Part shown: piece by piece, positions 5,616 through 33,854 of the stretch | Layout of the letters: each line of letters begins with the position of its first letter | Position numbering within the stretch: the stretch's first letter is position 1 | Position numbers and translations under genes: made by a program | Sequence record: NC_019708.1 | Source: Enterobacteria phage mEp235 | Length of the DNA stretch: 37,595 nt | Direction: 5' to 3' (one strand) | Notes under the pieces: model-generated | Seen by the model: only the letters and a program-made list of their open reading frames with translations | Told to the model about the DNA's origin: nothing | Database searches by the model: none

Positions 5616-5624
5616 TCCTTAACG

Positions 5625-5656
5625 GCGGCCTGCGGGCCGCTTTTCTTTTTTTCTTT
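5625..5656 (+). terminator. intrinsic terminator just after capsid gene
   Basis: GCGGCC-TGCG-GGCCGC hairpin followed by TTTTCTTTTTTTCTTT. Confidence 0.6.
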
Positions 5657-7699: not shown

Positions 7700-7723
7700 A
7701 CCGGCCTTGAGCCGGTTTTTTTA
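7700..7723 (+). terminator. intrinsic terminator upstream of major tail gene
   Basis: ACCGGC-CTTGA-GCCGGT hairpin followed by seven T. Confidence 0.5.
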
Positions 7724-7738
7724 TGACCGGAGATAACA

Positions 7739-8239
7739 ATGTCTGTATTGACGCAAGGTACGCAGCTCTTTGTGCTCGTAAAAGGCAAGGTGAGCGAAGT
7801 TGAATGTATCACTGCATTTTCACCCGGCAGCAATCCGGCTGACCAGATTGAAGACACCTGTCTTTCTGAGCGCTTTGATCGCAGCTATAAGCGTGGTCTT
7901 CGAACGCCTGGCACAGCATCACTGACGCTTAACGCTGATCCTAAAAATACCAGCCACATCATGCTCTACAACCTGTCCATTTCGGACGACGAAAAGGATC
8001 AGGACCTGACCTTCGCGATTGGATGGTCAGACGGAACCGCATCGCCAACTGCGGCTGAAAATGGTACACCAGGTGCAGTCGATGGCCTGGTGCTACCTGA
8101 TAGCCGCACATGGTTCGTATTCAAAGGCTATGTGTCCGACTTCCCGTTTGATTTTGCAGCAAACACGGTTGTTTCTACTTCTGCATCTATCCAGCGCTCC
8201 GGCTCTGCTGTATGGGTGCCAAAAGTCGTGACCCCATAA
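7739..8239 (+). CDS. major tail (tube) protein
   Basis: 166-aa ORF immediately upstream of the chaperone frameshift pair and tape measure. Confidence 0.6.
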
Positions 8240-8958: not shown

Positions 8959-11379
8959 ATGGCTTCCAAATCACTGGGCACGCTGACGATCGACCTGATT
9001 GCCAAAGTGGGCGGTTTTGTCTCAGGCCTCTCGCAGGCTGAGCGAGCTTCACAAAAATGGCGTAAGCAGGTAAAGGAGGATGCCGCTGCCGCTGCAGCTG
9101 CCATGACCGGATTCGCAACAGCAGTCGGGGCTGCAGCCATCGGAGCCGGAGTGGCGGGGTATAACCTGCTCAAAACCACTTCACGTCAGATTACCGAATC
9201 AGACCGCTGGGCAAAGTCACTTAACATGTCCACGCAGTCCCTGTTAGCCTGGCAATATGCTGCAGAAAAAGCAGGTGTTTCCGGCGATCAGATGGCCGAT
9301 ATCTTTAAAGATGTCGGAGACAAAATCGGTGATGCCGTTCTTAATAAATCTGGTGAGGCGGTCGGTGCGCTGGACGCTCTGGGTTTGTCGGCTAAGAAAC
9401 TGGCCGGAGAATCTCCCGACAAGCAACTCCTGGCTATCAGCGACGCACTGGAGAAAGTTAAGTCCAACGCCGAGAAGACTACCATCCTGGAGAGTCTGGG
9501 TAATGACCTGTCAAAGATGCTGCCGCTCCTGGACAATGGCAGTGAAAAGCTGCGTCAGTATATGGATGCCGCGAAGAAGTTTGGTGTGGCGCCCGATGAC
9601 GCAGATATTGAAAAGCTGGTCAGAGTCAACGCCCTGTTTGAGGATATGGAGACGCAGGTCAACGGCGTCAAAATTGAACTTGCTGCAGGGCTCGCCAGCG
9701 TAGATTTGAGTGGGCTCCAGAAGTCTATTGGAGATATGGGGGATGTATTTAAAGACCCGGATGTTATTCAGGGTCTGACTGATCTGGTTGGTGGGGTAGT
9801 GGACCTTGCCACCTGGCTGGTAAGGGTAGGGGCCGAGGCCGGAAAGCTGATAGACCAGTACAAAGGTGGGAGTTCGGTCGGCCTGAATGCCTCCATTCCA
9901 GAAATTGAACGGCGCATCAAGAACCTGAATGCAGATCTCGATGATAAAGGCATACTGGCGAGTTTCAACAGAATAGGTATGGACGTATCCGGTAAGGAGG
10001 CCGAAAGGGCTGAGCTCCAGAGGCGACTGGCCTTTTTGAGAAACTCCCAATCTACTCTACCGAAAATAAAACTGCCCGAGCCAGTCAAAACAAACTATAC
10101 CCTTGGCGCCGGGGAAACAAACGGTAAGCCGCAAAAAAATACCTCTGGTCAGAAACTGGATTCAGCGTTTAAAAGCGCTGAGCGCAGTTACATGCGTCAG
10201 ATTGAGCTGATCGATACCACCGGCAAAAAAACTGCTGTGGTGACCGAGCAGCAAAAACTGCAGTTCGATATAGCTGACGGCAAGTTGCAGGGGCTTAACG
10301 AAACCCAGAAGAAACGACTTGCGTCTCTGGCTCAGGAAGTTGATCGCCTTAATGCCGTCAAAAAAGCTAATGAAGAAAACGCGAAGGTAGCGGCGTTCGT
10401 GGCAAATCTGCAGGAGCAGAACGAGAATGCACGTGCAGATTTGGGCGTGGATATTCAGGGGGCCGGACTCGGTGACAAGCAGCGTGAAAGGCTGAGGGAA
10501 AGGCTGAGTATAGAGCGCAGTTATCTCGATCAGCAGCGCGATCTGCAAAAGCAGTATCAGTCAGGAGATATCAGCCAGACAGTTTATGACCGCGAAACCC
10601 AGGCATTAAAGGATGCACAAGCTGAGAGGCTGGGCATCCAGGAGGATTATTACAGTCAAATTGATGCGCTGCAATCTGACTGGGTGACTGGCGCCAGAGA
10701 CGGTCTCGCTGACTGGGTAGATGATTCAACTAACTATGCGACGCTGGCGGCGGACGCTATGAAAAGCGCGCTTTCCGGTATCAGCAGCAATATCGTCGAC
10801 ATGCTCAACGGCAATAAAGCGAGCTGGAAAGACTGGGGTGTCAGTGTTCTGAAAATCATCGAACAGGTGATGGTTAACATGATGATCGCCAATGCAGCCA
10901 GCTCGATAGGCTCATTGTTCGGTGGTGCCGCATCGTCTTCCGCCAGCAGCGGTACTGCGATTCAGTCCTACGGGGCGAGCCTGCAATTCAACGCCAAAGG
11001 CGGCGTTTACTCTTCTGCCGATCTCAGTCAGTACAGTAACTCTGTCGTCAGCTCTCCAACACTGTTTGCCTTTGCCAAAGGGGCCGGATTGATGGGGGAG
11101 GCTGGGCCGGAGGCTATTATGCCACTGACCCGCGCCGCTGACGGATCGCTGGGCGTGCGTGCTATGGGAATCTCAGGCTTAACACCGGGTGGTAGTAGTG
11201 CTCCTCAGGTCAGTATTCAGATTGATGGCAATGGGAATACCCAGACTCAGGCTAGCGGTGGATATGAGCAATTCGGGCGGGAGGTAGGTAGTTTTGTTGA
11301 TCGGCGATACCGCGAGTTGATAGGCCGTGACCTTTCACCCGGTGGCGCGGTCTGGAATCTGGCAAAAGGAGGGCGGTGA
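8959..11379 (+). CDS. tail tape measure protein
   Basis: 806-aa ORF, long helical repeats, Ala/Gly-rich N-terminal TM-like segment, position after chaperone. Confidence 0.9.
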   Translation: MASKSLGTLTIDLIAKVGGFVSGLSQAERASQKWRKQVKEDAAAAAAAMTGFATAVGAAAIGAGVAGYNLLKTTSRQITESDRWAKSLNMSTQSLLAWQYAAEKAGVSGDQMADIFKDVGDKIGDAVLNKSGEAVGALDALGLSAKKLAGESPDKQLLAISDALEKVKSNAEKTTILESLGNDLSKMLPLLDNGSEKLRQYMDAAKKFGVAPDDADIEKLVRVNALFEDMETQVNGVKIELAAGLASVDLSGLQKSIGDMGDVFKDPDVIQGLTDLVGGVVDLATWLVRVGAEAGKLIDQYKGGSSVGLNASIPEIERRIKNLNADLDDKGILASFNRIGMDVSGKEAERAELQRRLAFLRNSQSTLPKIKLPEPVKTNYTLGAGETNGKPQKNTSGQKLDSAFKSAERSYMRQIELIDTTGKKTAVVTEQQKLQFDIADGKLQGLNETQKKRLASLAQEVDRLNAVKKANEENAKVAAFVANLQEQNENARADLGVDIQGAGLGDKQRERLRERLSIERSYLDQQRDLQKQYQSGDISQTVYDRETQALKDAQAERLGIQEDYYSQIDALQSDWVTGARDGLADWVDDSTNYATLAADAMKSALSGISSNIVDMLNGNKASWKDWGVSVLKIIEQVMVNMMIANAASSIGSLFGGAASSSASSGTAIQSYGASLQFNAKGGVYSSADLSQYSNSVVSSPTLFAFAKGAGLMGEAGPEAIMPLTRAADGSLGVRAMGISGLTPGGSSAPQVSIQIDGNGNTQTQASGGYEQFGREVGSFVDRRYRELIGRDLSPGGAVWNLAKGGR

Positions 11380-11717
11380 TGGCTATAGAAACATTCAGCT
11401 GGTGTCCGCGCCCGAACGCGGAGCAGGAAGTGACATTCCGACGGCGCACCGCGCAGTTCGGTGACGGATATCAGCAGGTTTCCGGCGACGGGATTAATCC
11501 CCGCTCGCAGAAATGGACTCTCCAGTTTACCGGTACCGAAACGTATATCGGGGCGATTAAAGACTTTCTCGATCGCCATGCGGGCGTGACGGCGTTTCAG
11601 TGGCGCCCGCCGCTTGAGCCTCTCGGGCTTTACCGCTGCGACACCTACACACCAACGCCACTTGGTGCCGGGTTATTTAATCTTTCTGCAACTTTTGAAC
11701 AGGCCTACAAACCATGA
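11379..11717 (+). CDS. minor tail protein M-like
   Basis: ~112 aa, size and position as lambda M. Confidence 0.75.
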   Translation: MAIETFSWCPRPNAEQEVTFRRRTAQFGDGYQQVSGDGINPRSQKWTLQFTGTETYIGAIKDFLDRHAGVTAFQWRPPLEPLGLYRCDTYTPTPLGAGLFNLSATFEQAYKP

Positions 11718-12469
11718 GTCTTAACGCAGATTTTCAGAAGCTCGAACCTGGCGATGTGGTCAGGCTTTTCGAAGTGGATGGCACGGCATTTGGTACAGGT
11801 GATGTGCTGCGATTTCACAGCTACAGTCTTGCGCACTCTGAAGCCGAAATTATCGCTGCTGGCGGTGATGAAAATAAACTGCCAGCAAAATCTATCTGGT
11901 GGCAGGGTGAGGAGTATAAAGCGTGGCCATGCCAGATTGAGGGGATCGAAGCTTCAACCTCGGGAAGTAGTGCCCAGCCAAAACTTTCGGTTGCTAACCT
12001 CGACAGTTCGATCACCGCGCTTTGCCTGGCTTACGACGATATGCTGCAGGCGAAGGTGACGATACATGACACCCTTGGTAAGTATCTCGATGCGAGAAAC
12101 TTCACCGGAGGCAATCCGACAGCCGATCCGACCCAGGAGAAGCTGAAGGTTTTCTACATCGATGCAAAGAGCAGTGAAACCAATGAAGTTGTTGAGTTCA
12201 CACTATCCAGCCCTATGGATCTGCAGGGGCTGATGATACCTACCCGCCAGCTTCATTCTCTGTGCACATGGTGCATCCGGAACAAGTACCGAACCGGCGA
12301 CGGCTGCGACTATGCCGGTACGCGCTATTTCGACAAAAACAACAACCAGGTAAGCGATCCGTCACTGGATGAATGCAACGGAACGCTGACGGCCTGCAAA
12401 CTTCGGTTCGGTGAAAACAACGAACTCTCGTTTGGTGGGTTCCCGGGTACGTCGCTGATCAGGAGTTGA
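11714..12469 (+). CDS. minor tail protein L-like
   Basis: 251 aa, overlaps M stop; C-terminal Cys cluster as in lambda L. Confidence 0.8.
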   Translation: MSLNADFQKLEPGDVVRLFEVDGTAFGTGDVLRFHSYSLAHSEAEIIAAGGDENKLPAKSIWWQGEEYKAWPCQIEGIEASTSGSSAQPKLSVANLDSSITALCLAYDDMLQAKVTIHDTLGKYLDARNFTGGNPTADPTQEKLKVFYIDAKSSETNEVVEFTLSSPMDLQGLMIPTRQLHSLCTWCIRNKYRTGDGCDYAGTRYFDKNNNQVSDPSLDECNGTLTACKLRFGENNELSFGGFPGTSLIRS

Positions 12470-12470
12470 T

Positions 12471-13181
12471 ATGCGTCAGAAAACCATCGATGCGATTATG
12501 GCGCATGCTGCAGCTGAATATCCTCGTGAGTGTTGCGGCGTGGTGGCGCAAAAGAGCCGGGTAGAGAAATATTTTCCATGTAGTAACCTCGCTACCGAGC
12601 CGACAGAACATTTTCACCTGTCGCCAGAAGACTATGCAGCTGCTGAGGACTGGGGTACGGTGATCGCCATCGTTCACAGTCACCCTGACGCCACTACGCA
12701 GCCGAGCGAACTGGATAAAGCGCAATGCGACGCAACGCTTTTACCCTGGCATATTGTGAGCTGGCCGGAGGGGGATTTACGCACCATCCAGCCGCGCGGA
12801 GAACTGCCACTGCTGGAGCGTCCGTTTGTGCTTGGACACTTCGACTGCTGGGGGCTGGTAATGAGCTATTTCCGGCAGACCCACGGTATCGAGCTCCACG
12901 ATTACCGGGTTGATTATCCCTGGTGGGAAAACGACTATCCGGACAACTTCTATCAGGATTGCTGGTATGAGTGCGGATTCCGGGAATTCGACGGGCCACC
13001 GAAACCCGGCGATATGGTGATCATGCAGGTCCAGGCTGATAAGTGGAACCACGCTGGAATTCTGCTGGAGGGCAATATGCTGCTGCACCACCTGTACGGA
13101 CATCTGAGCCAACGCGTGCCGTATGGTGGCTACTGGCAGGAAAGGACGATGAAGATTCTTAGACATCAGAATTTTATTTAA
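12471..13181 (+). CDS. tail assembly protein K-like (MPN/JAMM plus NlpC/P60 domains)
   Basis: 236 aa; N-terminal HSHP motif and C-terminal Cys/His region typical of lambda K. Confidence 0.8.
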   Translation: MRQKTIDAIMAHAAAEYPRECCGVVAQKSRVEKYFPCSNLATEPTEHFHLSPEDYAAAEDWGTVIAIVHSHPDATTQPSELDKAQCDATLLPWHIVSWPEGDLRTIQPRGELPLLERPFVLGHFDCWGLVMSYFRQTHGIELHDYRVDYPWWENDYPDNFYQDCWYECGFREFDGPPKPGDMVIMQVQADKWNHAGILLEGNMLLHHLYGHLSQRVPYGGYWQERTMKILRHQNFI

Positions 13182-13228
13182 CAAACTGTCACTGATACTA
13201 TCGTGTAGTACACGGCAAGGAGAACGAT

Positions 13229-13453
13229 ATGTATACAGTTGGGTTTGGTTGGATCTTCGTCGGTATTTTTATTGGGTTAATTCTCTGGTTTTTCATCAAC
13301 CGCGCCAGCGTCAGAGCGAACAGGCAGGTTGAATTACTTGAGTCTATCGACCAGAAATTATCAAAAATAGTAGATCCAAACTTCGAGGCAAATAACAAAG
13401 ACCAGTCGAAAGAAAACTACCTTGAAGAAGCAAGGAAAAAAGCTGGGCTTTGA
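13229..13453 (+). CDS. small single-pass membrane protein inserted in the tail operon
   Basis: 74 aa; hydrophobic N-terminal helix then charged tail; own SD aaggag and own terminator. Confidence 0.5.
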   Translation: MYTVGFGWIFVGIFIGLILWFFINRASVRANRQVELLESIDQKLSKIVDPNFEANNKDQSKENYLEEARKKAGL

Positions 13454-13467
13454 GAGCGTAAATTAAC

Positions 13468-13492
13468 AAACCACCTACGGGTGGTTTTTTTA
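13468..13492 (+). terminator. intrinsic terminator after the membrane-protein gene
   Basis: AAACCACC-TACG-GGTGG followed by seven T. Confidence 0.7.
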
Positions 13493-13502
13493 TGGGGGCA
13501 GC

Positions 13503-14111
13503 ATGCAAGAGGTAATGACAAGAATTGAGCTAAGTGGCGTGCTAGCTAAGACATATGGAAGGGTTCATCACCGTCTTGTTCGCACTACTGCTGAAGCCAT
13601 TAATGCACTCGCGAAAACCATCAATGGATTCGAGAAATTCTTAAACACAAGCAAAGCCCGAGGGCTGACGTATGCCGTTTATAGAGATAAAAAGAATATT
13701 GGCGTTGATGATCTCGGCTTTCCCGTCACCGGCGAAGTGATCCGGATTGTCCCTGTAGTAATAGGGAGTAAAAAGGCTGGTCTTTTGCAGACGATCTTGG
13801 GGGCCGTGCTTATTACTGCTGCTGTGTTGACTGGCCCCGGCGGTATTGGCGCTGCTTTCGCTGCTGGTGGATTGACGGGGTTTGCTGCTGCCACTGGTGC
13901 CTCGTTGGTCCTCGGTGGGGTTATTCAGCTGCTTTCACCGCAGCCATCAGGCATAGCCAGTAAACAAAGCGCAGATAACCGTGCATCGTATGCGTTTGGC
14001 GGGGTAACCAACACTGCAGCGCAAGGCTACCCGGTGCCTCTGCTTTATGGTAAGCGTCGAATCGGCGGAGCGATTATTTCTGCCGGAATTTATGTCGAAG
14101 ATCAGCAGTAG
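13503..14111 (+). CDS. tail assembly protein I-like
   Basis: 202 aa with Gly/Ala-rich hydrophobic segment as in lambda I. Confidence 0.75.
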   Translation: MQEVMTRIELSGVLAKTYGRVHHRLVRTTAEAINALAKTINGFEKFLNTSKARGLTYAVYRDKKNIGVDDLGFPVTGEVIRIVPVVIGSKKAGLLQTILGAVLITAAVLTGPGGIGAAFAAGGLTGFAAATGASLVLGGVIQLLSPQPSGIASKQSADNRASYAFGGVTNTAAQGYPVPLLYGKRRIGGAIISAGIYVEDQQ

Positions 14112-14128
14112 ATAACTAACCTTTTTTC

Positions 14129-14153
14129 TGGCCACCTTCGGGTGGCTTTTTTA
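14129..14153 (+). terminator. intrinsic terminator between I and J
   Basis: GCCACC-TTCG-GGTGGC with UUCG tetraloop followed by six T. Confidence 0.65.
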
Positions 14154-14163
14154 TGGGCGCAAT

Positions 14164-17100
14164 ATGGCTACAGATAAAGTGTTAAAAGGCCGCAAGGGCG
14201 GCAGCTCAAGTTCCCGAACTCCTACCGAACAGCCTGATGATCTGCAATCTGTAGCGAAGGCAAAAATCCTCGTTGCGCTTGGGGAAGGTGAGTTTGCAGG
14301 GCAGCTCACCGGCAAAGATATCTACCTGGACGGAACAGCGCTGGAGAATGCTGACGGCTCCCAAAACTTCAGCGGGGTAACGTGGGAGTTTCGCGCGGGA
14401 ACTCAGGCGCAAAAATATATTCAGGGTATTCCCGGTACCGAAAACGAGATCAGCGTAGGAACTGAGGTATCAAGTGCCACAGCCTGGACGCGCACGTTTA
14501 CCAATACGCAGCTTTCAGCAGTTCGCCTGCGTCTTAAATGGCCCTCGCTTTTCAAACAGGAAGACGACGGCGATCTGGTGGGTTACTCGGTCAATTATGC
14601 GATTGACCTACAGACGGACGGCGGCACATGGCAGACGGTACTCAATACCAGCGTGACCGGAAAAACGACGTCTGGTTATGAGCGCAGCCACCGTATCGAT
14701 TTACCGCAGGCTGGCAGCACCTGGACAATACGTCTGCGTAAGATTACCTCTGACGCCAACAGCGCGAAGATCGGCGACACGATGATGCTGCAGAGCTTCA
14801 CCGAGGTGATTGACGCCAAACTGCGCTACCCGAACACCGCGCTGCTCTACGTCGAATTCGACTCAAGCCAGTTCAACGGCTCTATTCCTCAAATTTCATG
14901 CGAACCGCGCGGCCGCGTTATCCGCGTTCCAGATACCTACGACCCTGAAACCCGCACTTATAGCGGTACATGGACCGGTGCGTTTAAGTGGGCATGGACG
15001 GATAACCCTGCGTGGATTTTTTACGACCTGGTTGTTTCTGACCGGTTTGGCCTCGGGCACCGTTTGACCGCTGCGAATATTGATAAATGGACTCTTTATC
15101 AGGTTGCTCAGTATTGTGATCAGATGGTACCAGACGGCAAAGGGGGCAACGGTACAGAACCACGTTATACCTGCAACGTGTACATTCAGGACCGGAACGA
15201 CGCCTACACAGTCCTGCGTGATTTTGCCGCTATCTTCCGTGGCATGACCTACTGGGGCGGGGATCAGATTGTGGCCCTGGCTGACATGCCGCGCGATGTT
15301 GATTACAGCTATACGCGCGCTAACGTTGTTGGCGGTCGCTTCACCTATTCGAGCAGCACCACGAAAAGCCGCTACACCACAGCGCTGGTTTCATGGTCAG
15401 ATCCGGGTAACGCTTATGCCGACGCAATGGAGCCGGTATTTGAGCAGGCGCTGGTGGCGCGATACGGCTTCAATCAGCTGGAAATGACAGCCATCGGCTG
15501 CACCAGGCAGTCAGAGGCGAACCGAAAGGGGCGCTGGGGTATTCTCACCAACAACAAGGATCGCGTTGTTTCGTTTGATGTCGGGCTGGACGGAAACATT
15601 CCGCAGCCGGGCTACATCATCGCCGTGGCAGACGAGCTGCTTTCCGGAAAGGTTATGGGCGGCCGCATCAGCGCCGTTAACGGTCGCGTTATCAAACTTG
15701 ACCGCGTAGCTGATGCAGCACCAGGTGATCGCCTTATTCTCAACATGCCTTCCGGAGCGTCGCAGAGCAGGACCATTCAGGCCGTGAACGGGGAATCAGT
15801 CACAGTCACCACGGCATACAGTGAGACGCCACAGGCCGAAGCTGTTTGGGTGGTTGAATCTGACGAGCTTTACGCGCAGCAGTATCGTGTTGTCAGCGTC
15901 TCCGACAACGGTGATGGCACTTTCTCAATCACCGGCGCATGGCACGACCCGGATAAATATGCCCGCATCGATACCGGAGCCATCATTGACCAGCGGCCGG
16001 TGAGCGTGATCCCGCCTGGTAACCAGTCGCCGCCTGCGAACATCGTGATCAGCTCGTTTTCCGTGGTGCAGCAAAATATCAGCGTCGAAACGATGCGCGT
16101 GAGCTGGGACCAGGCGCAGAACGCTATCGCCTATGAAGCGCAATGGCGCCGCAACGACGGGAACTGGGTTAACGTGCCGCGCACCTCCACCACGTCATTC
16201 GACGTCCCGGGGATTTATGCCGGGCGCTACCTGGTGCGGGTGCGCGCAATCAATGCCGCAGAAATTTCATCCGGATGGGGCTATTCAGAAGAGAAAACGC
16301 TGACGGGTAAAGTGGGCAATCCACCGAAGCCGGTTGGCTTTATCGCCTCTGAAAACGTGGTGTTCGGTATCGAGCTGAACTGGGGATTCCCGGCGAATAC
16401 CGACGACACGCTGAAGACGGAAATTCAGTACAGCCTGACCGGTACTGAAGACGATGCCATGCTGCTGGCCGATGTGCCTTACCCGCAGCGCAAATATCAG
16501 CAGATGGGCCTTAAGGCTGGGCAGATTTTCTGGTACCGCGCGCAGCTGGTTGACCGCAGCGGTAACGAGTCAGGTTATACCGGCTGGGTTCGTGGGCAGG
16601 CCAGTATCGATGTTTCTGACATCACAGATGTGATCCTTGAAGACATCAAAGGGGCTGAGACGTTCAAAGACCTGATCGAGAACGCTGTGGACAGCAATGA
16701 AAAAATTGCTGGCATGGCTGACGACATCAAACAGGCCAACGATGAACTTGAACTCCAGGCGCAGGAAATCGCAAAAAACGCGCAGGACATCGGGCAGGTT
16801 CAGACCAGCGTTAATGAGCTTTCTAGCACGGTCGGTGATGTGTCGTCTTCTCTCTCAGATCTTGAGCAGACTGTTGCGACTGCTGATACCGCACTGGGCC
16901 AGCGAATCGACAGCATCAGCGTATCTATGGACGGCATGACGGGCGGGGTGAAGAACTCTGCTATCGCAATTATCCAGAACGGGCTGGCACAAGTGGCTAC
17001 GCGTAAATCGTTGTCAGCTTCGGTCGCAGGGAACAGTGCGCAGCTGGATCGTATTGATGAGGTAATCGTTAACGAGAAGGAGGCAACGGCGCGTTCTCTG

Positions 17101-17715
17101 CTGAGCCTGCAGACGGATGTCAACGGCAACAAGGCATCCATAAACAGCCTGAATCAGACGTTCTCCGACTATCAGCAGGCTACGGCCACGCAGATAAACG
17201 GCATAACGGCGACGGTGAACGGGAATACCTCCGCCATCACCACTAACGCTCAGGCGATAGCCAACGTTAATGGCGACCTCAGCGCGATGTACAACATCAA
17301 GGTTGGCGTTTCCAGCAACGGTCAGTATTACGCCGCGGGGATGGGTATCGGCGTGGAGAATACGCCATCCGGCATGCAGTCGCAGGTTATCTTCCTGGCT
17401 GATCGCTTCGCCGTCACCACGGCAGCCGGTAACAGCGTGGCTTTGCCGTTTGTGATCCAGAATGGACAGACATTCATCCGGGCCAGTTTCATCCAGGACG
17501 GCACTATCAGCAACGCAAAGATTGGTAATTTTATCCAGTCGAACAATTATGTTGCTGGTTCTGCTGGCTGGAAGCTTGATAAAGGGGGGACGTTTGAGAA
17601 CTACGGTTCGACTGCTGGTGAGGGAGCCATGAAACTGACAAATCAGACGATCAGCGTCAAAGATGGCAGTAATGTTCTTAGGGTGCAGGTTGGCCGATTA
17701 ACGGGAGTATTCTGA
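14164..17715 (+). CDS. host specificity / central tail fibre protein J-like
   Basis: 1183-aa ORF, size and position as lambda J. Confidence 0.9.
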   Translation: MATDKVLKGRKGGSSSSRTPTEQPDDLQSVAKAKILVALGEGEFAGQLTGKDIYLDGTALENADGSQNFSGVTWEFRAGTQAQKYIQGIPGTENEISVGTEVSSATAWTRTFTNTQLSAVRLRLKWPSLFKQEDDGDLVGYSVNYAIDLQTDGGTWQTVLNTSVTGKTTSGYERSHRIDLPQAGSTWTIRLRKITSDANSAKIGDTMMLQSFTEVIDAKLRYPNTALLYVEFDSSQFNGSIPQISCEPRGRVIRVPDTYDPETRTYSGTWTGAFKWAWTDNPAWIFYDLVVSDRFGLGHRLTAANIDKWTLYQVAQYCDQMVPDGKGGNGTEPRYTCNVYIQDRNDAYTVLRDFAAIFRGMTYWGGDQIVALADMPRDVDYSYTRANVVGGRFTYSSSTTKSRYTTALVSWSDPGNAYADAMEPVFEQALVARYGFNQLEMTAIGCTRQSEANRKGRWGILTNNKDRVVSFDVGLDGNIPQPGYIIAVADELLSGKVMGGRISAVNGRVIKLDRVADAAPGDRLILNMPSGASQSRTIQAVNGESVTVTTAYSETPQAEAVWVVESDELYAQQYRVVSVSDNGDGTFSITGAWHDPDKYARIDTGAIIDQRPVSVIPPGNQSPPANIVISSFSVVQQNISVETMRVSWDQAQNAIAYEAQWRRNDGNWVNVPRTSTTSFDVPGIYAGRYLVRVRAINAAEISSGWGYSEEKTLTGKVGNPPKPVGFIASENVVFGIELNWGFPANTDDTLKTEIQYSLTGTEDDAMLLADVPYPQRKYQQMGLKAGQIFWYRAQLVDRSGNESGYTGWVRGQASIDVSDITDVILEDIKGAETFKDLIENAVDSNEKIAGMADDIKQANDELELQAQEIAKNAQDIGQVQTSVNELSSTVGDVSSSLSDLEQTVATADTALGQRIDSISVSMDGMTGGVKNSAIAIIQNGLAQVATRKSLSASVAGNSAQLDRIDEVIVNEKEATARSLLSLQTDVNGNKASINSLNQTFSDYQQATATQINGITATVNGNTSAITTNAQAIANVNGDLSAMYNIKVGVSSNGQYYAAGMGIGVENTPSGMQSQVIFLADRFAVTTAAGNSVALPFVIQNGQTFIRASFIQDGTISNAKIGNFIQSNNYVAGSAGWKLDKGGTFENYGSTAGEGAMKLTNQTISVKDGSNVLRVQVGRLTGVF

Positions 17716-17716
17716 A

Positions 17717-18019
17717 ATGGCTTATGGAATACAGACCTGGGATGCTTCAGGAAAACCCAACAACTATGGCATCAAACCCGTTTCCGTCGTTGGGCGAATA
17801 CAGCTGGCTGCCGGGCAAACCTCAGGCAGCTGGTCTTTTACGGTGCCCTCAGGAATGAAAGTTGGTTTTGTTCTTTCACTTGATGAAGGAGGTAACAGCG
17901 TAGGGCGGCGCATTGTCGCGTCAGGGAGCACAATAACCGTAAGCGCTGCATCTTCTGTAGGTCTGGGTAATTATCCGGCCTCAAAGTGTGAAGTGGTCGT
18001 TTTCATGGAGAAAGCATAA
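17717..18019 (+). CDS. hypothetical protein downstream of J
   Basis: 100 aa; shares a WD-x-SGK motif with the next ORF. Confidence 0.5.
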   Translation: MAYGIQTWDASGKPNNYGIKPVSVVGRIQLAAGQTSGSWSFTVPSGMKVGFVLSLDEGGNSVGRRIVASGSTITVSAASSVGLGNYPASKCEVVVFMEKA

Positions 18020-18657
18020 TGGCCGAATTTGGCGCGATGATATTAATGGACAACGGGAACCCATTTGTAACGCCCCAGTCAACGCCTTTTTGTCTTTACG
18101 GCAAGTACACTTTCAACTCCTCTGCTAATGGCAGTTCGCAGCAGGTTGCTCAGAATATTGCATTAAATGCTGACTACCCTGTGATGGTATTTATCAGGAC
18201 CACAAATACCGCCCAGCCCACGCCAGTAATATCTTACCGGAACGGCGGAAATATATATGTCGCGGGGGTTAATCCCTATAACCAGAGCTTCACGTTAACC
18301 GCATATATTTTTGCCATATTTCCCCAGACGTTACCGAAATGGGGGATGGCCATCTGGGATTCGAGCGGGAAGCTGGTACTCACTAATGAGTCCCGCGTGC
18401 TGTCAGACTTGCAGACAATCGGAACGCCTGGAGCAAACGGCGGGATTAACATTGACCAGACGCTTGATGGTTCATGGGCAGTGGCTCCATCAAGGCTGGG
18501 GCAAGTGAACAGAAACGACGCTTACTCATCTTGTAGGTATTCAGGCACAAGTACAAGAATAAACGCCGGTACAGCCGCAAATACACCTGGCGGTGCTGGA
18601 GGGGTGATAAATAATGGAATTATCCTGACAGCAATTAAAACAGACGCCTATGACTGA
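18019..18657 (+). CDS. hypothetical protein downstream of J
   Basis: 212 aa, overlapping start, Gly/Asn/Thr-rich. Confidence 0.5.
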   Translation: MAEFGAMILMDNGNPFVTPQSTPFCLYGKYTFNSSANGSSQQVAQNIALNADYPVMVFIRTTNTAQPTPVISYRNGGNIYVAGVNPYNQSFTLTAYIFAIFPQTLPKWGMAIWDSSGKLVLTNESRVLSDLQTIGTPGANGGINIDQTLDGSWAVAPSRLGQVNRNDAYSSCRYSGTSTRINAGTAANTPGGAGGVINNGIILTAIKTDAYD

Positions 18658-18764
18658 TTGTTTTGAGCGATCAATAACAAATAATTTATCTATCTAATCA
18701 ATTATACCCATCGATTATGTATTGGTATCTTCGAAGCTACTGAATACCTCTGGATACTATCAAA

Positions 18765-18998
18765 ATGAAAAGGCTAATTATCTGCATAGCGGGCGCTTTA
18801 ATGCTGTCTGGTTGCGCTGGTGTACTTGAGAAACAGAAACCGATTTGCAGCGGCACGGCATATATGGGTGGCCATGAGAATACCGTTATGATTTACGCCG
18901 TTCGAAAGCAAAACAACCAGACGCAATACCGGGCCGGATATCCCTTTAACTGGCGCTGGGTAAGTGCGAACACATTCACAAGCACGACATGTAAATAA
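18765..18998 (+). CDS. small lipoprotein, possible Cor-like superinfection exclusion protein
   Basis: 77 aa with signal peptide and lipobox LSGC; located after the J-type tail genes where cor sits in phi80/N15-type phages. Confidence 0.5.
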   Translation: MKRLIICIAGALMLSGCAGVLEKQKPICSGTAYMGGHENTVMIYAVRKQNNQTQYRAGYPFNWRWVSANTFTSTTCK

Positions 18999-19056
18999 CT
19001 CATGATTTTCAATGCAAACCTCGCCTCGGCGGGGTTTTTTATTGCCTGGAGAAAAT

Positions 19057-20157
19057 ATGCTTTATAACACTGGAACCATCGCCATTAACGGAAACAGCGC
19101 CACCGGCACGGGCACGAACTGGACGGCACCCGCCAGCCAGGTTCGCGCTGGCCAGACGATTATCGTGATGTCTAACCCGGTGCAGCTGTTTCAGATTTCA
19201 TCCGTGAACAGCGCCATGTCAATGACGGTTACTCCAGCTGCTTCCCCGGCGCTGAGCGGCCAGAAGTATGGAATTCTTGTGTCGGACATTATCTCGGTTG
19301 ATGGGCTGGCACAGGCCATGTCACAGCTCATCAAAGAGTACGACGAGAATATTGGCGCGTGGGAGACCTTCGCCAGCACCTCAGCAAACCAGCTGGTCAC
19401 TGTGACAATCAACGGCACCAGCCTCAGCATTCCTGCCATCGGTGGTCTCGCCCGGAAAGGGGCAAATAGCGATATCACAGAGCTGAAAGGGCTAAGTACA
19501 GCATTGAGTGTTGCTCAGGGTGGGACAGGTGGCAAAAACGCTACGGACGCAGCAAATAATATTGGTGTTGGGCCTGCCAGTTATCCATTATTTTCTGGAG
19601 CGACCGTTTCGACAACAGGCTATGCAATTCTCGGAGCGCAAAATACTTCGCGAGAAGCAACGGATGTTGGGGCACGCGTTCAGCTTGAAGCGTCTATTGC
19701 TGCAAACGCTCCCGCAGTAATCATACAAAGGAATAATCAGAATAATCAGACAGGACAAATACGCTCAGTACTGCCATCAACATCTGGCACACTTGCTGTG
19801 CAGGGAACATCAGGAAGAGACTATAAAAAGAACATTTCTCCTGCGAATCCAGAAGAGGCTTTAGGAAGAATACTTGCGCTTGAGCTTGTCAATTTTGTTT
19901 ACAAGGATGATGAGAAGGATCGCCAGAGATTTGGGATTATTGCGGAAGACGCAGAAGTTATTGCTCCACAATATATTAAACACAACCAAGAACCGATTCC
20001 AGGAACGGAGGTTTTCAATGAAGATGGACACAAGATAGGAGAGGAGTTCCGTGATCGCCCATCAGTAGACAATAATCCTATTGTGATGGACCTGATTGGG
20101 TGTATTCATGGGTTGCAAAGACAAATTACCGATCTTAGACAGGAGCTTGTTGACTAA
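19057..20157 (+). CDS. tail fibre protein with C-terminal intramolecular chaperone (S74-like) domain
   Basis: SD ggag before ATG 19057; C-terminal ~120 aa resemble the self-cleaving chaperone domain of fibre and tailspike proteins. Confidence 0.65.
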   Translation: MLYNTGTIAINGNSATGTGTNWTAPASQVRAGQTIIVMSNPVQLFQISSVNSAMSMTVTPAASPALSGQKYGILVSDIISVDGLAQAMSQLIKEYDENIGAWETFASTSANQLVTVTINGTSLSIPAIGGLARKGANSDITELKGLSTALSVAQGGTGGKNATDAANNIGVGPASYPLFSGATVSTTGYAILGAQNTSREATDVGARVQLEASIAANAPAVIIQRNNQNNQTGQIRSVLPSTSGTLAVQGTSGRDYKKNISPANPEEALGRILALELVNFVYKDDEKDRQRFGIIAEDAEVIAPQYIKHNQEPIPGTEVFNEDGHKIGEEFRDRPSVDNNPIVMDLIGCIHGLQRQITDLRQELVD

Positions 20158-33049: not shown

Positions 33050-33234
33050 ACGCCACAATTCAAACGATACCAGAGCTTCTTATCCAGACACGAGGCAATC
33101 AGACCGAAGTGGCAAGGATGCTTTCCTGCGCAAGAGGAACAGTGCTCAAGTACAACCGAGACAGTAAAGGCGAGCGTCACGTAATAGTTAACGGCGTCCT
33201 GATGGTCAAACAGGGAAAAAGGGGAAGGCCATGA
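33046..33234 (+). CDS. NinH-like small DNA-binding protein
   Basis: 62 aa; GNQTEVARxLxCxRGTVxKY resembles lambda NinH. Confidence 0.55.
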   Translation: MNATIQTIPELLIQTRGNQTEVARMLSCARGTVLKYNRDSKGERHVIVNGVLMVKQGKRGRP

Positions 33235-33854
33235 GACTCGAAAGCGTAGCTAAATTTCATTCGCCAAAAAGCCCGATGATGAGCGACTCACCACGGGCTA
33301 CGGCTTCCGACTCTCTTTCCGGTACTGATGTGATGGCTGCTATGGGGATGGCGCAATCACAAGCCGGATTCGGAATGGCTGCATTCTGCGGTAAGCATGA
33401 ACTCAGCCAGAACGACAAACAAAAGGCTATCAACTATCTGATGCAATTTGCACACAAGGTATCGGGGAAATACCGTGGTGTGGCAAAGCTTGAAGGAAAT
33501 ACTAAGGCAAAGGTACTGCAAGTGCTCGCAACATTCGCTTATGCGGATTATTGCCGTAGTGCCGCGACGCCGGGGGCAAGATGCAGAGATTGCCACGGTA
33601 CAGGCCGTGCGGTTGATATAGCCAAAACGGAGCAGTGGGGGAGAGTTGTTGAGAAAGAGTGCGGAAGATGCAAAGGTGTCGGCTATTCAAGAATGCCAGC
33701 AAGCGCCGCATATCGCGCTGTAACGATGCTAATCCCAAACCTTACTCAACCCACCTGGTCACGCACTGTTAAGCCGCTGTATGACGCTCTGGTGGTGCAA
33801 TGCCACAAAGAAGAGTCAATCGCAGACAACATTTTGAATGCGGTCACACGTTAG
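33231..33854 (+). CDS. Q: late antiterminator Q
   Basis: 207 aa, appears near-identical to lambda Q as recalled. Confidence 0.9.
   Translation: MRLESVAKFHSPKSPMMSDSPRATASDSLSGTDVMAAMGMAQSQAGFGMAAFCGKHELSQNDKQKAINYLMQFAHKVSGKYRGVAKLEGNTKAKVLQVLATFAYADYCRSAATPGARCRDCHGTGRAVDIAKTEQWGRVVEKECGRCKGVGYSRMPASAAYRAVTMLIPNLTQPTWSRTVKPLYDALVVQCHKEESIADNILNAVTR

What the first reader, a model, noticed from the sequence alone, without database searches (positions are those of the whole stretch)
13182..14160. Small membrane-protein gene inserted between tail genes K and I, with a duplicated terminator junction
In lambda, K and I abut. Here a 74-aa single-pass membrane protein gene with its own SD and a strong terminator sits between them. 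A near-identical ~25-nt element (CGGGTGG-T/C-TTTTTTATGGG-G/C-GCA) occurs at 13476-13500 and 14137-14160, so gene I is flanked by two copies of the same terminator-plus-start junction. That looks like a recombination scar, and the small gene could be a lysogen-expressed exclusion or membrane-acting factor.
Basis: seen in the sequence. Interest (0 to 1): 0.55.

Follow-up and report, generated by a model that had tools for sequence, protein, structure and literature searches.

The report
Known YebO-like moron between tail genes
The small membrane-protein gene between tail genes K and I is the already described "gene 20 moron" of HK022/HK97-type phages, a relative of a known phage-exclusion protein, and the repeated sequence around gene I is two copies of a standard terminator-plus-ribosome-site junction, not a local insertion scar.

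Summary
The window is phage mEp235, an HK97-like lambdoid phage. ORF 13229-13453 (74 aa) is 100% identical to HK022 gp20, annotated "moron gene product" since 2000. It belongs to Pfam YebO and to the same PHROG as HK97 gp15, an experimentally shown superinfection-exclusion protein. It has low GC, a strong SD, an extended -10-like element conserved in divergent relatives, and a hairpin/T-run terminator.

It is not structural. It is absent from lambda and HK225, replaced by other cargo in most relatives, and amber-truncated in viable HK97.

The two similar junctions (30/35 identical) are real, but the one before J is present in 76/77 relatives whether or not cargo is there. I- and J-upstream hairpins are no more alike within genomes than between genomes. 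So this is not a local duplication scar. It reflects a shared pool of terminator-RBS boundary modules at moron slots.

Most likely function, inferred and untested: a prophage-expressed inner-membrane protein that blocks phage DNA entry, with the terminators insulating I and J until Q antitermination. The finding is already known and of low to moderate interest.

The parts
12471..13181 (+). Tail tip gene K (JAB + NlpC/P60), left border of the slot
   Evidence: Pfam PF14464 and PF00877. Homology to phages with other K-I cargo ends at about 13157-13159.
13193..13201 (+). Predicted extended -10 promoter element TGATACTAT (TG-n-TACTAT), 27 nt upstream of the gene 20 ATG. Predicted TSS about 13208-13210.
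   Evidence: TGnTAnnnT lies 24-31 nt before the start in 7 of 11 independent, otherwise unalignable upstream regions of YebO-like morons. Expected 0.18; 0 of 20000 shuffles reach 7. The strict -35/-10 scan found nothing. Not experimentally verified.
13217..13222 (+). Shine-Dalgarno AAGGAG of gene 20
   Evidence: Read directly from the sequence.
13229..13453 (+). Gene 20 moron ORF: 74-aa YebO-family single-pass membrane protein (TM residues 5-23, conserved NRASVRANRQVELLESID, C-terminal LEEARKKAGL)
   Evidence: Pfam PF13974 at 47.7 bits against a cut-off of 27. PHROG 5031, shared with HK97 gp15. Identical to HK022 gp20, annotated 'moron gene product'. GC about 40% against 52-60% in the flanks. 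Predicted long helix 3-48. K/R count is 0 before and 3 after the TM in all homologues.
13468..13494 (+). Intrinsic-terminator-like hairpin AAACCACC-TACG-GGTGGTTT plus T-run, ending 11 nt before the start of I. Right border of the K-I slot.
   Evidence: A hairpin and T-run precedes I in 61/76 cargo-bearing relatives and 0/3 without cargo. The detector's background rate is about 1%.
13471..13505 (+). Repeat copy 1 (hairpin 3' part, T-run, ATGGGGGCAGC, ATG of I)
13503..14111 (+). Tail assembly gene I
   Evidence: Pfam PF06805. Forms one near-identical mosaic block with gene 20 (about 13113-14111) in all gene-20 phages.
14130..14152 (+). Intrinsic-terminator-like hairpin GGCCACC-TTCG-GGTGGCT plus T-run, 11 nt before the start of J. 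Border of the I-J slot, which is empty in this phage.
   Evidence: Present in 76/77 relatives, and cargo when present (16 loci) always lies upstream of it. 97.6% of cells are paired, with a few compensatory changes.
14132..14166 (+). Repeat copy 2 (hairpin 3' part, T-run, ATGGGCGCAAT, ATG of J)
14164..17715 (+). Central tail fibre gene J (context)
33231..33854 (+). Q-type late antiterminator (context for read-through of the two terminators in lytic growth)
   Evidence: Pfam PF03589, E 1.3e-57.

Best explanation
This is the HK022-type 'gene 20' moron, a small autonomous transcription unit in the K-I junction of an HK97-like tail operon. Shown: the insert is foreign in composition and absent or replaced in relatives. 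It encodes a 74-aa YebO-family protein with one N-terminal hydrophobic helix. It ends in a GC-rich hairpin and T-run 11 nt before gene I, and a similar hairpin precedes J. Inferred: in a lysogen, sigma-70 RNA polymerase starts at an extended -10 promoter (TGATACTAT, 13193-13201). It transcribes gene 20 and stops at the hairpin at 13468-13494, so I and J stay silent. The protein inserts into the inner membrane N-out/C-in, with a roughly 50-residue cytoplasmic tail. By analogy with its homologue HK97 gp15, it protects the lysogen by blocking genome entry of superinfecting siphophages. In lytic growth, Q-modified polymerase from the late promoter reads through both hairpins. The two alike junctions are members of a shared family of terminator-plus-RBS boundary modules that mark moron slots (GT|TMP, TMP|M, K|I, I|J, cor|next gene). 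They are not a duplication created by this insertion.
For: Identity and prior annotation: window = mEp235 at 100% identity, and the ORF = HK022 gene 20 'moron gene product'. Family: PF13974 YebO; PHROG 5031 holds both gp20 and gp15; gp20 vs gp15 43% over 44 aa, E 5e-9; gp20 vs E. coli YebO 73% over 30 aa. gp15 is prophage-expressed, in the inner membrane, and blocks genome injection of HK97 and HK75 (PMC3594210). Non-structural: K and I overlap in lambda and HK225; 76 of 79 I-gene loci have K-I cargo but gp20 is the cargo in only 5 of the 80 loci, and a lipobox family is the usual cargo; HK97's copy has an amber at codon 33. Foreign composition: GC 39-45%. Promoter: TGnTAnnnT at a fixed distance in 7 of 11 divergent upstreams, 0 of 20000 shuffles. 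Terminators. Q antiterminator present. Selection on the protein: 54-76% identical copies in Serratia, Pantoea and metagenomes keep the TM, NRASVRANRQ and LEEARKKAGL. All 34 gp20-like genes in IMG/VR lie in tail-operon slots: 26 K|I, 6 TMP|M, 2 GT|TMP. Topology.
Against: No expression or phenotype data exist for gp20 in what I could search. Deleting or overexpressing chromosomal YebO had no effect on HK97 (PMC3594210), and gp20 is closer to YebO than gp15 is. Seven phages carry both gp15 and intact gp20, so the two are not simple alternatives. The predicted topology leaves only about 4 residues in the periplasm, which is awkward for direct contact with an incoming tail. The strict promoter scan found no -35/-10 pair. 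PADLOC has no model hit. About 20% of cargo-bearing relatives lack a detectable hairpin before I.
Confidence: 0.6

Rival explanations
1. gp20 is a lysogenic-conversion factor that acts on host membrane physiology in the way chromosomal YebO does (function unknown), not on incoming phages.
For: gp20 shares 73% identity with E. coli YebO over the TM-juxtamembrane core, more than gp15 does at 38%. Most of the protein is predicted to be cytoplasmic. The YebO family is widespread in Enterobacterales chromosomes (PMC3594210).
Against: All 34 phage copies sampled sit among the tape-measure and tail-tip genes rather than in the usual accessory regions. The phage subfamily has its own conserved C-terminal LEEARKKAGL, which E. 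coli YebO lacks. The only tested phage member, gp15, is an exclusion protein.
Confidence: 0.22
2. gp20 serves the phage's own lytic cycle, as a late-expressed membrane protein that helps tail-tip assembly or injection, or protects the infected cell late in infection. It would be transcribed only as part of the Q-dependent late operon.
For: It lies in the late operon in the same orientation. Its position next to tail-tip genes is conserved across genera. Gene 20 and I form one near-identical mosaic block.
Against: HK97 is viable with an amber at codon 33. Lambda, HK225 and most relatives lack the gene. A conserved extended -10-like element and a dedicated terminator argue for independent transcription.
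Confidence: 0.1
3. The two junction copies flanking gene I are a local duplication or recombination scar left by insertion of gene 20.
For: 30/35 identity, and these are the only two of five late-operon terminators in the window that share a stem. In LMessi, Fraca and mEp390 the K-I hairpin is 93-100% identical over 22-28 nt to the I-J hairpin.
Against: The J copy exists in 76/77 relatives regardless of K-I or I-J cargo, and lambda has a related hairpin there. Within-genome I/J hairpin identity equals between-genome identity (0.669 vs 0.671). The K-I hairpin occurs with unrelated cargo, and homology to those phages resumes at its 5' foot.
Confidence: 0.08
4. The hairpins act mainly as mRNA 3'-end stabilisers or processing barriers, or as translational regulators of I and J, rather than as terminators.
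For: They sit 11 nt from the start codons. The stretch from the T-run to the J start (TTTTTTATGGGCGCAATATG) is nearly invariant in 41 distinct sequences, more so than a weak SD would seem to need. An out-of-frame ATG lies inside both junctions.
Against: The GC-rich stem plus a 6-7 T run is the canonical intrinsic-terminator form. The hairpin before I tracks the presence of cargo (61/76 vs 0/3), as expected for a unit that must be terminated. GenBank depositors annotated both as terminators.
Confidence: 0.1

Closest known systems
HK022 gene 20 moron (Juhala et al. 2000; GenBank AF069308, HK022_20)
   Same: Identical protein, same K|I position, same hairpin and junction. The 321-bp insert is 99.1% identical.
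   Different: Nothing of substance; it is the same element in another phage (mEp235). Its function has never been reported in what I could search.
HK97 gp15 superinfection-exclusion moron (Cumby et al. 2012; PMC3594210)
   Same: YebO-like, same PHROG 5031, single N-terminal TM, and a tail-operon moron ending in a hairpin, T-run and ATGGG just before the next gene's start.
   Different: Different slot (GT|TMP rather than K|I). Only 43% identity over 44 aa. gp15 is 62 aa and lacks the C-terminal LEEARKKAGL motif. gp15 has been tested experimentally; gp20 has not.
E. coli YebO (b1825), Pfam PF13974
   Same: TM plus juxtamembrane core IGLILWFFINRAS.R.N.Q.ELLE, 73% identical over 30 aa.
   Different: Chromosomal, 95 aa, with an N-terminal extension and an unrelated C-terminus. 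It had no effect on HK97 when deleted or overexpressed (PMC3594210).
Other lambdoid exclusion and conversion morons (Cor, lambda Lom/Bor, P22 SieA)
   Same: Prophage-expressed envelope proteins carried as promoter-gene-terminator units. This window also carries cor at 18765-18998 with its own terminator.
   Different: No sequence relationship. Cor acts on the outer-membrane receptor FhuA, whereas the gp15 type acts after adsorption.
Intrinsic terminators inside Q-antiterminated lambdoid late operons
   Same: GC-rich stem and T-run inside an operon read through by Q-modified polymerase. Lambda has a related hairpin just upstream of J.
   Different: Here they directly abut the next gene's RBS and serve as the fixed right-hand border of cargo slots.

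Membership tests
Moron (Juhala et al. 2000) | Extra DNA between two genes that are adjacent in related phages | tested here: met
   K and I overlap in lambda and HK225, and in 3 of 80 IMG/VR loci. The insert is 321 nt here.
Moron (Juhala et al. 2000) | Own promoter | tested here: inconclusive
   No -35/-10 pair in the strict scan. An extended -10-like TGnTAnnnT lies at a conserved distance in 7 of 11 divergent upstreams, with 0 of 20000 shuffles reaching that. No transcript data.
Moron (Juhala et al. 2000) | Own factor-independent terminator | tested here: met
   Hairpin 13468-13487 plus T-run, -14.9 kcal/mol. Annotated as a terminator in the HK97, mEpX1 and HK633 records. Termination activity itself is untested.
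Moron (Juhala et al. 2000) | Base composition different from the surrounding genes | tested here: met
   GC 39-45% across 13125-13724, against 52-60% in K and the rest of I and J.
Moron (Juhala et al. 2000) | Expressed from the repressed prophage | not testable with these tools
   Needs lysogen RNA data; none was found.
YebO family (Pfam PF13974) | Score above Pfam's gathering threshold | tested here: met
   47.7 bits against a cut-off of 27, E 1.8e-12. RefSeq labels identical prophage copies 'YebO family protein'.
gp15-type superinfection exclusion protein | Sequence homology to HK97 gp15 | tested here: met
   BLASTP E 5e-9, 43% over 44 aa. Both fall in PHROG 5031.
gp15-type superinfection exclusion protein | Inner-membrane localisation | tested here: inconclusive
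   Prediction only: one hydrophobic helix at residues 5-23, and a positive-inside pattern in all 24 homologues.
gp15-type superinfection exclusion protein | Blocks phage genome entry independently of repressor immunity | not testable with these tools
   Requires plating and DNA-entry assays.
Local duplication / insertion scar | The two copies arose together with the insert, so the J copy should be absent where gene 20 is absent, and copies within a genome should be each other's closest relatives | tested here: not met
   The J copy is present in 76/77 loci irrespective of cargo. Within-genome and between-genome identity are equal.

The most novel reading that the evidence does not exclude
The roughly 35-45-nt terminator-plus-RBS modules are a shared, exchangeable set of boundary elements that define the moron slots of Hendrixvirinae tail operons. 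They supply the short homology by which cargo is swapped between slots and between phages. The YebO-like gene sits in three slots, and the L244 gp20-I junction is about 91% identical to the cor-downstream junction of this window. In addition, gp20 would be a second DNA-entry blocker with a specificity different from gp15, acting through its conserved cytoplasmic LEEARKKAGL tail.
Probability: 0.2. Interest if true: 0.5.

Novelty: already known. Interest (0 to 1): 0.25.

Why it matters
The element is a textbook moron, so its presence changes nothing. What remains open is what gp20 does. It is closer to the uncharacterised host YebO family than the one studied phage member (gp15) is, it often sits in the same genome as gp15, and it is always found beside tape-measure or tail-tip genes. 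Testing it would show whether YebO-like morons form a family of entry blockers with different specificities. It could also give a first handle on YebO function. The slot-border terminators also offer a concrete, testable picture of how tail-operon morons are kept silent in one direction and exchanged.

Tried and rejected
- **Promoter scan:** the strict sigma-70 scan found no promoter in 11000-19500. I relied instead on a conserved extended -10 motif.
- **Database searches with no result:** PADLOC gave no hit for gp20 or gp15. Rfam gave only a sub-threshold hit (STnc130, 24.5 bits against a gathering score of 55) on the terminator hairpin. Pfam gave no hit for ten other cargo families.
- **Papers not held:** the primary papers (Juhala 2000; Cumby 2012) were unavailable, so I used the authors' addendum, PMC3594210. 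Searches for HK022 gp20 studies and for YebO function found nothing relevant. The HK022-lysogen paper has no prophage expression data.
- **gp15 and gp20 as mutually exclusive alternatives:** rejected, because seven phages carry both.
- **Gene 20 moving alone as a cassette between the K stop and the hairpin:** rejected. In gene-20 phages the near-identical block runs from about 13113 through gene 20 and I.
- **Cargo families shared between the K-I and I-J slots:** none found.
- **Strong covariation in the J-upstream stem:** only modest, with 2 of 5 pairs showing changes on both sides.
- **Intragenomic conversion between the I- and J-upstream hairpins:** rejected by permutation test.
- **Hairpin origin:** whether the hairpin belongs to the cargo or to the slot remains unresolved. 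Hairpin types after YebO-like genes vary within and between slots.

Full report
**What is there.** The window is phage mEp235: PV340540.1 matches at 100% over 12900-14400. It is an HK97-like lambdoid phage.
- K is 12471-13181, the small ORF is 13229-13453, I is 13503-14111 and J is 14164-17715.
- The small ORF has an AAGGAG Shine-Dalgarno at 13217-13222.
- Hairpin/T-run elements lie at 13468-13487 and 14130-14147. They fold at -14.9 and -16.1 kcal/mol, z about -2.7.
- The repeat is 30/35 identical (13471-13505 vs 14132-14166), and its 22-nt core is unique to these two places (0 expected).
- Among the five terminator-RBS junctions of the + strand late operon, only these two share the CCACC/GGTGG stem.

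**What the gene is.** The 321-bp insert is 99-100% identical in 13 distinct E. coli phages.
- In HK022 it is gene 20, annotated by the depositors as "moron gene product".
- In HK97 the same DNA carries an amber at codon 33 (window position 13325), which is why HK97 has no annotated gene 20.
- The protein matches Pfam YebO (47.7 bits against a cut-off of 27). It falls in PHROG 5031 together with HK97 gp15, to which it is 43% identical over 44 residues.
- According to its discoverers, gp15 is expressed from the prophage, sits in the inner membrane and blocks genome injection by HK97 and HK75. They also noted its YebO relationship, and that E. coli YebO itself has no effect on HK97 (PMC3594210).
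- gp20 is closer to E. coli YebO than gp15 is: 73% over 30 residues against 38% over 48.
- A Klebsiella prophage protein bridges the two, with a gp15-like middle and gp20's C-terminal LEEARKKAGL.
- RefSeq already names identical prophage copies "YebO family protein". Only 7 of 5,426 complete E. coli genomes carry the moron.

**It is an accessory gene, not a tail component.**
- K and I overlap in lambda and HK225.
- I sampled 80 IMG/VR loci by their I gene, so the sample is not biased by the motif. Of these, 76 have K-I cargo of 321-2807 nt, 3 have none, and in 1 K was not found.
- gp20 is the cargo in only five of the 80. A lipobox-bearing family is the usual occupant (57 loci).
- The insert has 39-45% GC, against 52-60% around it.
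- HK97 is viable with the truncated copy.

**Independent transcription.** The strict promoter scan found nothing. However, gp20-like genes at 54-76% identity in Serratia, Pantoea and metagenomic prophages occupy the same slot. Their upstream regions are unalignable except for a TGnTAnnAT element 25-30 nt before the ATG, plus the SD. Across 11 independent YebO-like morons, TGnTAnnnT lies 24-31 nt upstream in 7. The expected number is 0.18, and none of 20,000 shuffles reached 7. Here the element is TGATACTAT at 13193-13201. This is comparative evidence for an extended -10 promoter, not proof. The window encodes a Q antiterminator, so late transcription should override the hairpins.

**The protein.**
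- All homologues have one hydrophobic segment (residues 5-23 here), no K/R before it and three K/R just after it. That predicts an N-out/C-in topology.
- AlphaFold gives one long helix at 3-48, and a low-confidence C-terminal helix at 52-72.
- The conserved features are the TM segment, NRASVRANRQ(V/I)ELLESI(D/N) and the C-terminal LEEARKKAGL.

**The junctions.**
- The hairpin-T-run-ATGGGCGCAAT-ATG junction before J is present in every relative examined, whether the I-J gap is 52 nt or holds 500-700 nt of morons. Lambda has a related hairpin there.
- In the I-gene sample it is present in 76/77 loci: 60/61 with an empty slot and 16/16 with cargo. Cargo always lies upstream of it.
- Its stem is mostly sequence-conserved, with a few compensatory changes.
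- A hairpin and T-run within 30 nt of the start of I occurs in 61/76 cargo-bearing loci and 0/3 cargo-free loci. Stems fall into at least eight sequence families.
- The same detector fires at about 1% of random or shuffled positions and at 0/75 K starts.
- Against phages with other K-I cargo, homology to the window stops at 13157-13159 and resumes at 13466-13469, the 5' foot of the hairpin.
- Within genomes, the I- and J-upstream hairpins are no more alike than between genomes (0.669 vs 0.671; 2833 of 5000 permutations reach the observed mean).

So the pair in mEp235 is not a local duplication or an insertion scar. Both positions draw on a common pool in which the CCACC/GGTGG stem is frequent.

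**Wider pattern.**
- YebO-like morons occupy three tail-operon slots. GT|TMP holds HK97 gp15, Klebsiella P7641, L140 and L226/L227. TMP|M holds L224, L225 and L228. K|I holds the rest.
- Of 34 gp20-like genes in IMG/VR, 26 are in K|I, 6 in TMP|M and 2 in GT|TMP, and none lies elsewhere.
- Each copy, or the second cargo gene that follows it in some loci, ends in a hairpin and T-run 10-15 nt before the next gene.
- In L244, a 91%-identical gp20 is joined to I by a module about 91% identical to the one downstream of cor in this window, although the neighbouring genes differ.

This suggests that junction modules are exchanged between slots. It does not show that they mediate the exchange.

**Verdict.** This is a correct rediscovery of a known moron. 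The membrane-protein and exclusion reading is reasonable and rests on homology to gp15. The scar reading is not supported. The function of gp20 is still untested.

Noticed in passing
window 18765-19058: A Cor superinfection-exclusion lipoprotein gene (PHROG 1119, E 2e-37) is followed by a hairpin and T-run at 19017-19036 and the start of the next gene at 19057. This junction is about 91% identical to the gp20-to-I junction of metagenomic locus L244 (3238-3281), although the flanking genes differ.
   Followed up: partly
L001 (HK97) 1830-1928; window position 13325: HK97's copy of gene 20 has a C-to-T change that makes codon 33 an amber. Only the 32-residue membrane segment could be made unless the host suppresses amber. 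This explains the missing 'gene 20' in HK97's numbering.
   Followed up: yes
L224, L225, L228 (TMP|M); L140, L226, L227, L015, L006 (GT|TMP); window, L136, L139, L141 (K|I): The same YebO-like gene family is found in three different junctions of the tail operon, always beside tape-measure or tail-tip genes. It is never elsewhere in the 34 viral contigs sampled.
   Followed up: yes
L143-L222, K-I gaps (e.g. L003 1076-1522, L004 1112-1453): The commonest K-I cargo (57 of 80 loci) is a family of roughly 110-150-aa proteins with lipoprotein-type signal peptides (PHROG 890 'lipoprotein' and PHROG 914). It has no Pfam match. Several other cargo families also carry lipoboxes.
   Followed up: partly
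window 13492-13502 and 14153-14163: Both junctions contain an out-of-frame ATG (13493, 14154) that opens 7- and 10-codon reading frames overlapping the starts of I and J. The stretch from the T-run to the J start (TTTTTTATGGGCGCAATATG) is nearly invariant in 41 distinct sequences, which is more conserved than a weak Shine-Dalgarno would seem to require.
   Followed up: no
window 13503-13724: The low-GC tract (39-45%) continues into the first ~220 nt of gene I. HK225's I gene shows DNA homology only from 13658 onward. The N-terminal domain of I therefore belongs to the same mosaic, variable block as the cargo.
   Followed up: no
L162, L184, L188, K-I gaps of 2.7-2.8 kb: Some relatives carry multi-gene cargo in the K-I slot, including 222- and 247-aa proteins and a reverse-strand 147-aa gene. 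I did not examine them further.
   Followed up: no
window 5624-5641 and 7700-7716: Two more terminator-like hairpins with T-runs lie directly upstream of late-gene ribosome sites (one is just before the major tail gene at 7739). Terminator-RBS junctions are therefore a general feature of this late operon.
   Followed up: no
L001 2745-3245, L002 2734-3054, L005 2033-2347: In HK97, HK022 and mEp506 the I-J slot, which is empty in this window, holds pairs of convergent moron genes (gp22/gp23; gp22/srb; a DUF2594 protein). They are inserted upstream of the same J-proximal hairpin.
   Followed up: partly
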